From Octopus vulgaris (Eukaryota): DNA of 64,000 nt. The translations under genes were made by a program, and so were the position numbers. Shown here in pieces: positions 34,353 to 62,878 of the stretch. Position 1 is the first letter of the stretch. Each line of letters begins with the position of its first letter. The notes under the pieces were generated by a model that was not told the origin of the DNA, searched no databases, and saw only the letters and a program-made list of their open reading frames with translations. The stretch is taken from assembly GCA_951406725.2 (NCBI GenBank), contig OX597833.1, positions 44,640,001 to 44,704,000 of the forward strand, given 5' to 3'.

Positions 34353-34410
34353 ATGAAGCTCTTATTTATAATAACGCTGCGGCCTTCTGACAATTCAGTT
34401 TCTGGTGATT
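34353..34410 (+). CDS. Candidate signal-peptide exon, copy 2
   Basis: Same as 6186-6243: ATG at 34353, GTAAGT at 34411. Confidence 0.5.
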
Positions 34411-37400
34411 GTAAGTTAAAGAATATGATCTTCAGAATTCATTTTTCATTTTCCTCTCGTATCACCATTATTCTCTTTATATAATTCTAACCCCCCTCAC
34501 ACTCTGCCTCTCTATTTATATATGTACACACATACACACACACACACACACACACACACACACACACACACACACACACACACACACATATATATATATA
34601 TATATATATATATGCACACAGATACACACATTCACACACGTATGCACACATACACCCACGCTCAAGCACACACACACATACACTACATCTACCATGTCGT
34701 TATATTTATATACACACATTTATATATACATAATATATATATATACATTTATATACACACACAAACACAAAAACACACAACAGTTTATAAAGGAAACGGG
34801 TTAATAGTAATCAATACATTGTATAGTTTTGTTTATACATTATTTAATTTAAGGATTGGATCAATATTTAAAATTCTCTTCCTTTGTAGGGTTTCTCTCT
34901 CTCTCTCTCTCTCTCTCATATATGTGTGTGTGTATATGTGTGTGTGTGTATGTGTGTGTGTGTGTGTGTGTGTGTGTGTGTGTGTGTGTGTGTGTGTGTG
35001 TGTGTGTGTGTGTGTGTGTGTCTGTATTTATTTATTCACTTATTTACTTACCTATATATATACACAGTATAATATTATTTTGTCTGCAAGTCGGAAACTT
35101 TACGAAGCAAAAAGCAAACAGTTATCAATATTTCGCGAAAAAGCAAATTTACTATTAAAGATGACTATCTTTCAATTATTTCGTGTTTTCTCGCCGAAGA
35201 AGCGTTCAACAGATATTTCAACGAGTCAAATAATTTTCCCAATGCTAACGGAATAATTGTCTGCGTTCAGCGACGTGAAACGGCGTGTTGTCAACTTTCG
35301 TTTGGTTGTACTTGTTTATATAAATAAAATAGTTTAAACTTATATATTTAGTGTTTTAGACAAGAAATACTTTTCTTTGCTAAAACATTCAATCCTATAA
35401 CGCTATAAAATCATCTTACGATTTCTGGTACCTTTGATCTTTGATTAAAGAATTTTTCCATTTCATTTTATGTCATTTTGTGTGTGTGTGTGTGTGTGTG
35501 TGTGTGTGTGTGTGTGTGTGTGTGTGTGTGTGTGTGTGTGTGTGTGTGTGTGTGTGTGTGTGTGTGTGAGAGAGAGAGAGAAAGGAAAGTGAGTTAGGGT
35601 TACGGTTACGGTTTAGTGTTAGAATAGGTGTTAGGGTCAAGGTTTTTGCTACGCCGAAAACGGTGGTGTACGTACTCTTTATCGCCGACGGAAAAATGAT
35701 TAGTACATTTTGAGTTAATTATTGTAATAACTGTTTGTGTTGTGTCCTTTTGTGTAGGAGGGTGTATGAAGAGTGGGTGACATAGGTCTTCCAAATAACA
35801 CCCTTTGACCAAGTAACCTTTCCTCGATACAAAAAGCACAACCCGACATAATCTCAACCACTTTTTCATAGCCATTTTCAGTCCTTCCATGTCTTCAAGT
35901 TGCGGTCACCGAACACTCTCCTTTATTGCACCAAATAAATTAGAAATCTGAGGGTACCAGATCTGAACTGTTCAGTTGATGGGGGAACCACTAGCCAGCC
36001 CTTTCTGTCGATTGCTTTGTTTATTAACGATGATGTGTGTAGTCGCACATTATTATGGTGACTGTGGCCCATTTTCAGATTCCGATTCGGTTTCTTCCTC
36101 TAAATCGCCCCTCTAAGCCTTTTGAATATCGAAGTGTACTGTTCGTTGTTCATTGTGCAGCTACGTACTAGAATATCAAAGAGAATTATGCCCATGTCAT
36201 CTAAAAAGACAAAACGGTTACTTTGACTTCCTGTACCGAATCTGGTTGTCCTTGGAGAAGAATTGTAATACCATTCTATGGACTGAGTCTTCGTTTCAGG
36301 ATATAAAAGAAACGCCCACATCTCATCCCTTGCTGCCAGATCGGAGTAAACGTGCGGAGAAATGGCTTCAAAAGCTTCCAGCAAATCAGAACTACATTTC
36401 ACCCTTCTTTCTTCCAAAGTGGTTACCAATTCCCGATTTATCCAGTTTGGACACGCTTGTCGACACTCAAAGTATCCCACCATATCTTGTAATGCATTAT
36501 AACCCCAATTCAGTTGTGCAGCAACATGAGTAGAAGATTTTTTTAAAACAATTTTTATCCTGAAAATCACCTGTTACTTTTGTTTTAAAGTGAAAGAGAA
36601 GAGAAAGGGAAAGATATATAAACGTGTATATGAAATGGGCGTGTATGTGAGAGAGAGACAGGGTGGGGGGAGAGAGAGAGTGCCATTTACACATACATGA
36701 GAACACACACGTTCACTCACCCACACTCTCTCTCTCTTTCTCTCTCTTTCTTTCTCTCTCTCTTTCTCTCTCTCTCACCCTATCTCAAACACACATGCAC
36801 ACGTACATACAAAAATGGTGTACGCATGTGTATTGATATATGTACGTCTTCACTCACTCTCACTCTTTCTCTTTCTCTCTCTCTCTCTCTCTCTCTTCCT
36901 CTACTCTCTCTTTCTCTCTCTTCCTCTCTCTTTCTCTCTTTCACAGGTACTCGGCCAATTCATATACACATACATATATCTTTCACTTTCTTCTCTCATT
37001 CACTTTAAAACAAAAGTAAAAATAGAAAAATGTTTACGGAAATAAACGAACTCCGGTGATGAAATCACATTCAGTTAAAAATATTTCTAAATAATTAAAA
37101 TATTGTTTACGTCAAAAAGAAGACTTTTTTGCTTATAGGCGCGCAGACTGTGTGTGTATATGTCACAGATAGCGGACGTGTGTTTGTAATGATTGACACG
37201 CCATAACATTCATCCTATGTGTGTGTATTCTATATGTGTGTATATGTTTATGTGTGTTGATGTCACGGAAGCGAGATCTTTTTCGTCAAGAAATAACAAA
37301 CAAAAATTGTGTTTAATCATTAAAAAATAGAATCCCAAATATCACAAAAATTTGTACTGCACTGCTGAAGGTAAGTATAAAACAAAACATGTAAAAAAAA

Positions 37401-61400: not shown

Positions 61401-62878
61401 TTTTCCATTTTTGGTAACACATTGCACTCGGCTATCTATAGCAATTTTTTATACATACAAACATATGGCACGTAAAAATTTTTGAACCTGGCGGTTGCCA
61501 GTTCCGTGTGGCTGATCCTCGTGCCGGTGGCACGTAAAAGCACCCACTACACTCGCGGAGTAGTTGGTGCTAGGAAGGGCATCCGACTGTAGAAACTCTG
61601 CCAGATCAGATTGGAGCCTGGTACAGCCATCTGGCTCGCCACTCCTCAGTCAAACCGTCCAACCCATGCCAGCTTGGAAAATGGACGTTAAACGATGATG
61701 ATGATGATGAATGATACGTATATATATATATATATATATATATATATATAATTCCCAGTCAATTCGCTTTTCAACCACATGTTTTCGAGTTGAATCTCGC
61801 TGCACGGCACCTTGAGAGAATGTCTTCAACTGTAGCCCCGGATATAGCAACGCTGAATGATAGGGAAATTTCTTGGCTCCCTATAACTCAGCGGTTCAGC
61901 AAAAGACATCAAGGGAGTAGGTACCAGATTGAAAACATACGTACTGTGATTGCCCTGTTTCAGGTGCAAAGGCACGTTTTCAGGAGAAAACAATCTGGAG
62001 AATGTTCAGTTGTGCAGATTCCGTTAACCCATTCAAATCCTTTGCATAACTGGACATTTCCCAGGTTGTTTTTCTTCTGAAATATAAAGGTTTTATAAAA
62101 CGTTCCGCATTGTCAAAAGCTTTCTATTTTCTTTCTTTTTAACCTGCTTTTAATATGTTTTCTATTTTTTATTCAAGCTACTACAAAACCGCCACTTACT
62201 GTAGGTTCACGTAAGTTTTTCTATCTTCATTTCATTCAACAGTATTCTGATCCTTGTTACTTTTATACGGAAAGCAGTGGATGCTTGAATTGATTCAACA
62301 TTCCGTTAAATTTTTTCCTGTATTTAGTTGTATTCCTTTATGTTGAGAGTTCAGATCCCACTAGGTTTTATGGGTCACTCATCCATCTGGACGTTAATAA
62401 AATAAGTAGTCAACTACCAATGTCGATCAAATCAATTGCCCCCTTTCCTTTAAATGTGGGATTTTGTGTCTCTTAAAAATCAATATCATGTAGACGAAGT
62501 GAGGTAGCAAAGTCAGTCACTAACCAACTATGTAACATTACGTTCTGAGTTGCATATTATACGTGACACCGTCTCATATCCATTGAGTTCGATAAAATAA
62601 AGTATCACTTAAGTACTGGGGTCGATATAATCAACCCATACTCTCCCTGAAAATATGCAGAATTGTATCCGATATCATAAATCAGCATTATCATTATTGC
62701 TGTTTGCTTTCTATTGTTTATTTTTTTAATTAAAACAGATATATTGTATGGTGATGGTTTTGCTGCTAGCACATCGGTCGTGATTATTTCAATTAGCTCC
62801 GTTTCTAGTATTTTTTTCCTGTGTCGGGCTTTCGTGTTGCGACAAATTTTTCAGGAATGCATTATTCTTGTAACATAG
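34353..62878 (+). CDS. Complete spliced gene model: signal peptide - Ig - Ig - microexon-encoded mucin-like stalk - hydrophobic C-terminus (12 exons, 350 aa)
   Basis: Exons 34353-34410, 38361-38681, 43177-43518, 48707-48736, 49789-49824, 52097-52114, 53896-53913, 56444-56461, 58244-58261, 60047-60067, 62178-62210, 62739-62878. All junctions are GT-AG and phase 1, and the exons sum to 1053 nt, an open frame ending in TAG. The first and last exons are less certain. Confidence 0.72.
35793..36430 (-). mobile_element. Mariner transposase remnant, copy 2
   Basis: Duplicate of 7640-8276. Confidence 0.72.
38007..38088 (+). pseudogene. U6 snRNA pseudogene, copy 2
   Basis: Duplicate of 9853-9934. Confidence 0.78.
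38361..38681 (+). CDS. Ig domain exon 1, copy 2
   Basis: 321 nt, AG/GT, phase 1-1, DEGPYRC motif. Confidence 0.85.
39885..41266 (-). mobile_element. Chapaev3-like transposase remnant, copy 2
   Basis: Duplicate of 11730-13110; a longer open frame at 40153-40752 includes [19 protein letters not shown]. Confidence 0.6.
41943..42650 (+). mobile_element. hAT transposase remnant, copy 2
   Basis: Duplicate of 13785-14490. Confidence 0.78.
43177..43518 (+). CDS. Ig domain exon 2, copy 2
   Basis: 342 nt, AG/GT, phase 1-1, FRC...FNW...VKC. Confidence 0.85.
44862..45417 (+). mobile_element. Non-autonomous mariner with TIRs and TA TSD, copy 2
   Basis: Duplicate of 16704-17259; [13 protein letters not shown] is in frame here. 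Confidence 0.9.
48707..48736 (+). CDS. Stalk microexon 1 (30 nt, [10 protein letters not shown]), copy 2
   Basis: AG/GTAAGT, phase 1-1. Confidence 0.8.
49789..49824 (+). CDS. Stalk microexon 2 (36 nt, [12 protein letters not shown]), copy 2
   Basis: AG/GTAAGT, phase 1-1. Confidence 0.8.
52097..52114 (+). CDS. Stalk microexon 3 (18 nt, TTTAKP), copy 2
   Basis: AG|CTACCACTGCTAAACCGA|GTGAGT. Confidence 0.75.
53896..53913 (+). CDS. Stalk microexon 4 (18 nt, TTTEKP), copy 2
   Basis: AG|CTACAACGGAAAAACCGA|GTAAGT. Confidence 0.75.
56444..56461 (+). CDS. Stalk microexon 5 (18 nt, TTTAKP), copy 2
   Basis: AG|CTACCACTGCTAAACCGA|GTGAGT. Confidence 0.75.
58244..58261 (+). CDS. Stalk microexon 6 (18 nt, TTTEKP)
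   Basis: AG|CTACAACGGAAAAACCGA|GTAAGT. Confidence 0.75.
60047..60067 (+). CDS. Stalk microexon 7 (21 nt, TTTTAKP)
   Basis: AG|CTACTACCACTGCTAAACCGA|GTAAGT; a frame-preserving +3 nt variant. Confidence 0.78.
60833..61190 (-). mobile_element. Apparently full-length tRNA-derived SINE inserted only in the last repeat unit
   Basis: Minus-strand head tggagacgcaatggtccagtggttagggcagcgg...gcggtttcgattccc (A/B boxes). Flanked by ccatct(a/t)ata at 60822-60831 and 61191-61200. Sister units show the empty site. Confidence 0.88.
62178..62210 (+). CDS. Stalk microexon 8 (33 nt, [11 protein letters not shown])
   Basis: ttttttattcaAG|CTACTACAAAACCGCCACTTACTGTAGGTTCAC|GTAAGT; phase 1-1. Confidence 0.75.
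62739..62878 (+). CDS. Candidate terminal exon with a hydrophobic membrane-anchor segment
   Basis: T-rich tract + aaacAG acceptor. In phase 1 it reads [46 protein letters not shown]. Confidence 0.6.

What the first reader, a model, noticed from the sequence alone, without database searches (positions are those of the whole stretch)
34353..62878. Hidden Ig-Ig-mucin-stalk-anchor receptor gene whose stalk is encoded by eight symmetric microexons
Seen: eight 18-36 nt segments (30, 36, 18, 18, 18, 18, 21, 33 nt), each bounded by a T-rich AG acceptor and a GT(A/G)AGT donor, each a multiple of 3 and phase 1-1. They follow two phase 1-1 Ig exons and splice to [64 protein letters not shown]. Established: Thr/Pro-rich O-glycosylated stalks lift Ig domains off the membrane (e.g. 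TIM-family, CD8) and are usually encoded by one or a few exons; arrays of symmetric microexons generate splice diversity in schistosome micro-exon genes (MEGs) and SmPoMucs. Inference: this is a MEG-like surface receptor in a probable cephalopod, in which any subset of microexons can be skipped in frame to tune stalk length. Standard annotation would likely miss it.
Basis: partly seen in the sequence, partly recalled or inferred. Interest (0 to 1): 0.88.

Follow-up and report, generated by a model that had tools for sequence, protein, structure and literature searches.

The report
Octopus receptor with microexon-built stalk
This is a real, spliced octopus gene for a two-immunoglobulin-domain protein, predicted to be lipid-anchored on the cell surface, whose threonine-rich stalk is built from tiny exons that were copied in tandem in the DNA, so stalk length differs between neighbouring gene copies and is likely set mainly by DNA duplication rather than by free exon skipping.

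Summary
The eight microexons are real (8 of 8 found; 200 shuffles give at most 1). Public contigs splice Ig1 to Ig2 to microexon 1, and microexon 8 onward. Three corrections. (2) Microexons 1-7 are copies of one intron-plus-exon cassette; four neighbouring gene copies have 44-64 aa stalks. Contig structure argues against frequent skipping of microexons 1-3; skipping among identical later copies is open. (3) A public model already has most microexons but fuses five copies. The gene belongs to an unnamed octopus family (44 Ig2 exons in 1.25 Mb scanned) with a transmembrane, tyrosine-motif member; this scan found that family before on other DNA. Only five copies carry the stalk array. The window's second copy across a gap is probably an assembly duplicate. 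It is not a MEG. Closest logic: IgG3 hinge-exon copy number, CADM1 stalk exons, CEACAM cluster. New variant of a known kind; interest 0.5.

The parts
34278..34410 (+). Exon 1, signal-peptide exon (predicted).
   Evidence: The O. bimaculoides orthologue model starts at the upstream ATG, the O. vulgaris model at the downstream one. Not tested with RNA.
38361..38681 (+). Ig domain 1 exon, phase 1-1, 321 nt
   Evidence: its end is the loose end in front of Ig2 in X5 and X6; beta-sandwich in the model of the orthologue
43177..43518 (+). Ig domain 2 exon, phase 1-1, 342 nt
   Evidence: contig cover in X5 stops at both exon edges
48707..48736 (+). Microexon 1 (30 nt)
   Evidence: it is the first 30 letters of the loose end behind Ig2 in X5 and X6, with one letter changed
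49789..49824 (+). Microexon 2 (36 nt)
52097..52114 (+). Microexon 3 (18 nt)
   Evidence: its last 17 letters (shared with microexons 5 and 7) precede microexon 8 in an X6 contig
53896..53913 (+). Microexon 4 (18 nt)
   Evidence: no RNA support seen
56444..56461 (+). Microexon 5 (18 nt), copy of microexon 3
   Evidence: flanks 100% identical over 270 nt
58244..58261 (+). Microexon 6 (18 nt), copy of microexon 4
   Evidence: flanks 100% identical over 270 nt; no RNA support seen
60047..60067 (+). Microexon 7 (21 nt)
62178..62210 (+). Microexon 8 (33 nt), AAG acceptor; flanks only about 65% like the cassette (shuffled control 53-62%)
   Evidence: its counterpart in copy E is spliced to the 48-nt exon
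50373..59025 (+). 4.34-kb tandem duplication (99.7%) that doubled microexons 3+4 into 5+6; short templated repeat at the junction near 54679-54716
62739..62878 (+).
   Evidence: Absent in copy E, frameshifted in copy A, -1.2 bits against family tails
62211..64000 (+). Intron after microexon 8, running off the window's end. The gene's last two coding exons lie beyond the window: a 48-nt phase 1-1 exon with a Trp/Arg-rich segment (G000:C20:44705045-44705092) and a GPI-signal-like last exon (G000:C20:44707020-44707105).
   Evidence: 48-nt exon present in copies A, B, D, E, with a GT..AG joint from microexon 8 in X5 and X6 laid on copy E. Last exon: first 15 letters are the loose end behind the 48-nt exon in X6; intact in 4 of 4 complete copies; 11.0 bits against family tails, above 500 of 500 shuffles
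1870..29946 (+). Near-identical second copy (C) of 30047-58124, ending at the 100-N gap 29947-30046; probably the same DNA assembled twice
   Evidence: 99.56%, 24 mismatches, 48 gaps; 3 mismatches and 14 gaps over 11.2 kb, against 67 and 27 for D versus B

Best explanation
The gene encodes a spliced two-Ig-domain protein with a Thr/Pro-rich stalk, predicted to be O-glycosylated and GPI-anchored, whose stalk grew by tandem copying of one intron-plus-microexon cassette, so that length is likely tuned mainly by cassette number in the DNA and the protein likely acts as a raised, non-signalling recognition or decoy receptor. Shown: exon structure; splicing Ig1-Ig2-microexon 1 and microexon 8-48-nt exon-last exon in close copies; common origin of cassettes 1-7; stalks of 44, 47, 64 and 46 aa in copies A, B, D, E; Ig fold in a model of the orthologue; no cytoplasmic tail; membership of a large tandem family with a transmembrane, tyrosine-motif member. 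Inferred: GPI addition, O-glycosylation, near-constant inclusion of the microexons, unequal crossing-over as the engine of copy change, and the recognition or decoy role (by analogy with CEACAMs). Because each microexon is phase 1-1 and a multiple of 3, any gain or loss of a cassette keeps the frame.
For: Cassette flanks of microexons 1-7 are 83-100% identical; the cassette occurs only at C20:44.588-44.744 Mb (26 of 26 matches). 19 of 20 cassettes in A, B, D, E carry an exon that is a multiple of 3; the exception (17 nt) is in copy B, whose Ig2 also lacks one base. Splice joints in X5 and X6. Contig ends at +95, -17 and +15 are reproduced by E-like plus B-like transcripts with no skipping; each of 7 added skipping isoforms broke the pattern. 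Last exon is homologous to family tails. Family: 45 Ig1 hits and 44 distinct Ig2 exons in 1.25 Mb; Thr arrays behind 5 of 44. The transmembrane member has one 42-nt stalk exon. AlphaFold2 mean pLDDT 80.5, two beta-sandwiches; Foldseek top hits are mostly Ig receptors and antibodies.
Against: RNA evidence is from assembled contigs of one study, not on record as RNA, which drop rare variants; only 30 of the 95 letters behind Ig2 are shown, so microexons 2-3 are inferred from length. The contigs are mosaics closer to copy E; E plus the eight-exon D form gives 88, not 95, so the eight-exon transcript itself is not shown. The same contig ends fit two splice forms of one gene that differ by one identical cassette. 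The single stalk exon of the transmembrane member is skipped in O. sinensis model X3, so stalk splicing exists in the family. No GPI, signal-peptide or O-glycosylation predictor was available. No ligand, tissue or function data. Ig1 D versus E pN 0.062, pS 0.036, flanks 4.3% apart: counts too small to claim selection.
Confidence: 0.62

Rival explanations
1. MEG-like splice diversification: each gene makes a ladder of stalk lengths by skipping microexons in many combinations.
For: All eight exons are symmetric. The path branches or loops after +95 nt, which skipping among identical cassettes would also cause. A family member skips its stalk exon in a database model. CADM1 does this with a 33-nt exon (PMC5385562, passages).
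Against: Skipping of microexons 1, 2, 2+3 or 3, or direct joins to microexon 8, would cut the observed contigs. Symmetry is explained by inheritance from one duplicated cassette. Strong consensus splice sites at 8 of 8. MEG products are secreted and mostly microexon-coded (PMC10526429, passages); here 64 of 374 aa.
Confidence: 0.22
2. The eight-exon form in this window is inflated by assembly error or is a silent copy; real alleles have about five stalk microexons.
For: The 4.34-kb repeat is 99.7% identical and lies in a region that was probably assembled twice. The contigs do not require microexons 4-6. Copies A, B and E have 5, 5 (plus one broken) and 5 microexons.
Against: The repeat junction holds a short templated insertion and is the same on both sides of the gap. 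Contigs with no difference from D over 43174-43252 exist in X5 and X6. All D exons and splice sites are intact.
Confidence: 0.15
3. Same gene structure, but the function is neuronal or epithelial cell-cell matching in the manner of Dpr/DIP or IgLON proteins, the stalk setting the spacing between membranes.
For: Two Ig domains plus a likely GPI anchor is the Dpr layout (PMC10084454, passages). Contig depth differs widely between the four samples (3.6-5.6 against 229-266), a weak hint of tissue restriction.
Against: No sequence hit to such proteins in solved structures. Paralogues are only about 25-40% identical, sit in young tandem arrays with broken copies, and include a member with an ITIM-like motif, which fits host-microbe turnover better (inference).
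Confidence: 0.25
4. The protein is mainly released: it is cut at the Arg-rich segment of the 48-nt exon, so the stalk is a glycosylated tail on a soluble two-Ig protein.
For: Three arginines in a row just above the predicted anchor in 4 of 4 copies; stalk exons control shedding in CADM1.
Against: No arginine four residues before the cut, which furin prefers (recalled). The anchor signal is kept intact in all four complete copies.
Confidence: 0.15

Closest known systems
Human IgG3 hinge (PMC7899677, passages read)
   Same: A spacer next to Ig domains coded by repeated short exons whose number varies in the genome (1 to 3 core repeats), changing reach and function.
   Different: The hinge is Cys/Pro-rich, lies inside a secreted antibody, uses 15-aa units (recalled) and varies between alleles of one gene; here 6-12 aa Thr/Pro units lie under a surface receptor and vary between tandem gene copies (alleles not tested).
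CADM1/SynCAM1 stalk exons (PMC5385562, passages read)
   Same: Ig domains on a Thr-rich, O-glycosylated stalk coded by short exons, one of 33 nt.
   Different: CADM1 is one conserved transmembrane gene whose stalk exons are shown to be alternatively spliced; here the exons are young duplicates, the anchor is likely GPI and skipping is not shown.
CEACAM family (PMC2832619, passages read)
   Same: Tandem, species-specific Ig cluster with a transmembrane ITIM-type member and GPI-anchored or tail-less relatives.
   Different: No sequence homology found; primate GPI signals arose from the transmembrane exon, whereas here the GPI-like exon is a separate last exon shared by many family members; microexon stalks did not appear in the passages read.
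Schistosome micro-exon genes (PMC10526429, passages read)
   Same: Short exons, mostly multiples of three, between long introns.
   Different: MEGs are secreted, have 10-20 microexons that code most of the protein, and have many verified isoforms; here two folded Ig domains and an anchor make up most of the protein.
Dpr/DIP/IgLON (Wirin) proteins (PMC10084454, passages read)
   Same: Two or three Ig domains with a known or proposed GPI anchor; expanded families.
   Different: No sequence match; this family has extra conserved cysteines in both domains and turns over fast within Octopus.

Membership tests
Immunoglobulin superfamily | Ig beta-sandwich fold | tested here: met
   AlphaFold2 model of the orthologue (79-81% identical domains): two beta-sandwiches, mean pLDDT 80.5; Foldseek E about 1e-6 to NKp46, Fab and LILR chains, whole-chain TM only 0.2-0.3
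Immunoglobulin superfamily | Pfam Ig profile match | tested here: inconclusive
   0 of 2 window domains; 4 of 45 family members match PF00047 at E up to 0.1, best 3.9e-05
Immunoglobulin superfamily | One domain per phase 1-1 exon (recalled rule) | tested here: met
Unnamed octopus two-Ig cluster family | Homologous Ig1 and Ig2 exons in a tandem cluster | tested here: met
Unnamed octopus two-Ig cluster family | Homologous hydrophobic last exon | tested here: met
   11.0 bits against a 7-sequence tail profile; shuffles at most 6.1
Schistosome MEG | Microexons code most of the protein (10-20 exons) | tested here: not met
   8 microexons, 64 of 374 aa
Schistosome MEG | Secreted, no membrane anchor | tested here: not met
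   Conserved hydrophobic C-terminal signal; anchoring itself is predicted
Schistosome MEG | Many isoforms by exon skipping | tested here: inconclusive
   Not seen for microexons 1-3 in two samples; open for 4-7
Schistosome MEG | Short exons, multiples of three | tested here: met
   8 of 8
CEACAM/PSG | Sequence homology to CEACAM domains | tested here: not met
   None among 52 solved sequences matched at E up to 10
CEACAM/PSG | Cluster with an ITIM-type transmembrane member plus GPI members | tested here: met
   Transmembrane member with Tyr motifs, one fitting (I/L/V/S)xYxx(L/V) in O. sinensis models; GPI status of the others is predicted
GPI-anchored protein | Cleaved C-terminal signal and lipid anchor | not testable with these tools
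Mucin-type stalk | Dense O-glycosylation | not testable with these tools
   31 Thr and 10 Pro in 64 aa (counted); glycosylation inferred
TIM family | Single IgV domain, mucin stalk, transmembrane helix and tail (recalled) | tested here: not met
   Two Ig domains and no cytoplasmic tail

The most novel reading that the evidence does not exclude
An octopus recognition-receptor subfamily has a two-level reach dial: a frame-preserving microexon cassette is gained and lost between gene copies and between individuals by unequal crossing-over, and identical cassettes are also skipped in splicing. Fast-changing Ig tips, swapped between copies, are thus displayed at many heights above the glycocalyx as decoys for a transmembrane inhibitory relative. 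This would be an invertebrate parallel to IgG3 hinge polymorphism joined to CEACAM-type decoys.
Probability: 0.2. Interest if true: 0.8.

Novelty: new variant of a known kind. Interest (0 to 1): 0.5.

Why it matters
It catches the birth of a microexon array in progress: one cassette, copied at 83% up to 100% identity, turned a family with little or no stalk into one with 44-64 aa stalks, within a single five-copy subcluster. It gives a clean test of whether such arrays are for splicing diversity or are simply the frame-safe way to lengthen a spacer. It also supplies the missing 3' end for a gene that public models fuse or truncate, in an uncharacterised octopus Ig cluster that is a candidate recognition system. 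The parts (Ig on a Thr stalk, short stalk exons, exon copy number, GPI relatives of an inhibitory receptor) each have vertebrate precedent, and function is untested, which limits the score.

Tried and rejected
No RNA holder listed: none of the 6 holders is on record as RNA. Idea that the 48-nt exon is a cut-down transmembrane exon: weak similarity only, and relatives have a varied segment ending in the same two residues at that place, so not pursued. Idea that the cassette is a transposon: no copies elsewhere among 26 matches (the search skips very common words). Pfam on the two window domains: no Ig hit. Homologue searches by words found only octopod proteins; the profile search added distant gastropod and bivalve proteins at E 4e-13 and weaker, partly through the transmembrane segment. 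Positive selection among A-E: too few changes to test. The cassette tree had 10 of 15 inner branches open, so the order of duplications among the 18-21-nt cassettes is not resolved. The wide structural search was not obtained. Nine paper searches listed no paper whose title or abstract start describes this gene or family; the library is open-access only and no supplements were read, so a listing in a genome paper's tables is possible.
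Full report
OBSERVATION. Lengths are 30, 36, 18, 18, 18, 18, 21 and 33 nt, all phase 1-1, behind two phase 1-1 exons of 321 and 342 nt. In 43519-62900 there are 8 such sites on the + strand, all in frame and Thr/Pro-rich, and none on the - strand; 200 shuffles give at most one.

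THE WINDOW HOLDS THE GENE TWICE. Bases 1870-29946 match 30047-58124 at 99.56%, and the two blocks end exactly at a 100-N gap. Over 11.2 kb the two differ by 3 substitutions and 14 gaps, whereas the true neighbour B differs from D by 67 and 27. I read this as one stretch assembled twice (about 75%, inference); a very young copy is not excluded.

ORIGIN OF THE MICROEXONS. Microexons 1-7 sit in copies of one intron-plus-exon cassette: their flanks are 83-100% identical, while those of microexon 8 are about 65% alike (shuffled control 53-62%). A 4.34-kb duplication at 99.7% turned microexons 3+4 into 5+6. The cassette matches 26 places in the genome, all within C20:44.588-44.744 Mb. That interval holds five tandem copies of the gene, A to E (D is the finding, C the probable assembly duplicate), 95-100% identical in the Ig exons. 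Stalks are 44 aa (A), 47 (B, leaving out a 17-nt broken exon), 64 (D) and 46 (E). Of 20 cassettes in A, B, D and E, 19 carry an exon that is a multiple of three. The order of the later duplications is unresolved (10 of 15 branches open).

SPLICING. Six runs hold the Ig2 exon. I laid four of the six, all from one study. In X5 and X6 the deep contigs (229-266) cover Ig2 to its edges, carry the end of Ig1 in front, and go on for 95 letters that begin with microexon 1; X1 and X2 are shallow (3.6-5.6) and the X1 contig runs on into the intron. Laid on copy E, X5 and X6 join microexon 8 to a 48-nt exon across a GT..AG intron (depth 217 and 230); in X6 that contig starts with 17 letters of a microexon 3/5/7 type and ends with 15 letters of a further exon. 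In D these two exons lie at G000:C20:44705045 and 44707020, past the window. The last exon is intact in A, B, D and E and has the look of a GPI signal; it scores 11.0 bits against a profile of seven family tails, above all 500 shuffles. The revised model is 374 aa from the ATG at 34278, where the O. bimaculoides orthologue model starts.

IS THERE SKIPPING? I simulated 31-mer graphs of pairs of transcripts. The contig ends at -17 and +15 fall exactly where D-type and E-type letters differ, so both types appear to use the same 3' exons. The end at +95 is reproduced by E-like plus B-like cassette sets (211 of 44,044 pairs tried fit, all built to start with microexons 1 and 2), but not by E plus the eight-exon D form (88). 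Adding an isoform that skips microexon 1, 2, 2+3 or 3, or that jumps to microexon 8, moved the end to 0, 34, 37 or 70 in 7 of 7 trials. So microexons 1-3 look constant in these samples, provided the 65 unseen letters are microexons 2-3 and allowing that such contigs drop rare forms. Skipping of one of two identical later cassettes fits equally well and stays open. Microexons 4 and 6 have no RNA support here.

FAMILY. Database proteins name the animal as Octopus vulgaris. The public model CAI9737738.1 already contains microexons 1-7 of this copy but fuses five copies; the O. bimaculoides models stop inside the stalk. Own-genome searches gave 42 Ig1 and 27 Ig2 matches, on C20 clusters plus one intronless copy on C1. 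In 1.25 Mb scanned there are 45 Ig1 hits and 44 distinct Ig2 exons (46 hits, two split); a Thr-rich microexon array follows only those of A-E. One member has a single 42-nt stalk exon, a transmembrane exon and a tyrosine-motif tail; an O. sinensis model of it lacks the stalk exon. Many others end in hydrophobic tails. Strong hits that I could name are from Octopus and Argonauta; weak ones from abalone, limpet, another gastropod and scallop (20 of the 150 listed proteins were looked up). The model of the orthologue shows two beta-sandwiches and an unstructured stalk, and matches mostly Ig receptors and antibodies, with some transglutaminase chains among the top rows; the language-model search also points to V-set and C2-set clusters. 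Earlier notes of this scan describe the same family on other DNA, with the same CEACAM comparison that I had reached before the look-up; a word search for the stalk array found none. These notes are unchecked and are not counted as support.

MECHANISM. Shown: structure, splicing in close copies, cassette origin, copy-number differences. Inferred: a phase 1-1 cassette can be gained or lost without breaking the frame, so unequal crossing-over lengthens or shortens the stalk in 6-12 aa steps; O-glycans stiffen it (about 0.25 nm per residue, recalled, so about 11-16 nm for 44-64 aa); a GPI anchor holds it; with no tail it cannot signal alone and would serve as a raised binder or decoy beside the transmembrane relative. 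Confidence: real gene 0.95, GPI anchor 0.85, cassette origin 0.97, mainly genomic tuning 0.7, recognition or decoy role 0.5; 0.62 for the structural account as a whole.

COMPARISON. IgG3 hinge exons vary in number between alleles and change function (PMC7899677, passages; PMC7555362, three passages, reference titles and a table note). CADM1 uses short Thr-rich stalk exons, one of 33 nt, to control shedding (PMC5385562, passages). CEACAMs pair an ITIM receptor with GPI relatives (PMC2832619, passages). MEGs are secreted and mostly microexon-coded (PMC10526429, passages); this gene fails two of their defining features. Dpr proteins share the two-Ig layout (PMC10084454, passages) without sequence match. 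Nine searches (listings only) showed no paper on this gene or family; supplements were not read.

VERDICT. Real and expressed in close copies, with a corrected 3' end. A new variant of a known kind: an Ig receptor whose stalk is a young array of duplicated microexons. Interest 0.5.

Noticed in passing
window 1870-29946 and 30047-58124, gap 29947-30046: 28.1-kb near-identical repeat whose ends coincide with the two sides of a 100-N gap; few substitutions and many one-base indels (13 of 32 in runs of 4 or more). Probably one stretch assembled twice; a very young real copy is possible.
   Followed up: partly
window 1-5150 (- strand); G000:C20:44713755-44718905: A LINE-type retrotransposon (a frame with a CCHC zinc knuckle and a 974-aa frame with a reverse-transcriptase motif) lies upstream of copies C/D and, 99.94% identical, upstream of E. 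It travels with the duplicated unit and could favour unequal crossing-over.
   Followed up: partly
window 54679-54716: Short templated repeat at the junction of the 4.34-kb duplication, of the kind left by template switching (interpretation recalled).
   Followed up: no
window 51232-51860, 55575-56207 and others: Imperfect inverted repeats of 250-630 bp around (TA)n tracts lie inside the cassette introns; they could affect splicing or promote rearrangement.
   Followed up: no
G000:C20:44606-44633 kb (copy B): One base missing in an A run of Ig2 and one 17-nt microexon: a pseudogene, or in part a consensus error.
   Followed up: partly
L075:1285-2334 (G000:C1:165.12 Mb): Intronless copy of the transmembrane family member with an open frame and a shortened tail that lacks the tyrosine motifs; likely a retrocopy.
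   Followed up: partly
G000:C20:43.61-43.66 Mb: Transmembrane member: one 42-nt stalk exon, a transmembrane exon and small tail exons; O. sinensis model X3 lacks the stalk exon and X5 lacks part of the tail.
   Followed up: partly
window 43177-43518, runs X1, X2, X5, X6: Ig2 contigs mix letters that mark copies B, D and E in this genome, a hint of gene conversion between copies.
   Followed up: no
P0009 (CAI9737738.1): The public 1202-aa model chains five copies into one protein, uses an internal donor in Ig2 in four of them and ends in a segment downstream of the real last exon's stop.
   Followed up: yes
P0028 (O. bimaculoides XP_014783813.1): A distant family member has its own short Thr-rich stalk before a hydrophobic tail; no Thr-rich microexon array was found behind any of the 16 distinct Ig2 exons of the clusters where its best C20 matches lie. 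Possibly an independent stalk.
   Followed up: partly
G000:C20:44516644-44520935: One neighbouring gene has two near-identical Ig2 exons in tandem.
   Followed up: no
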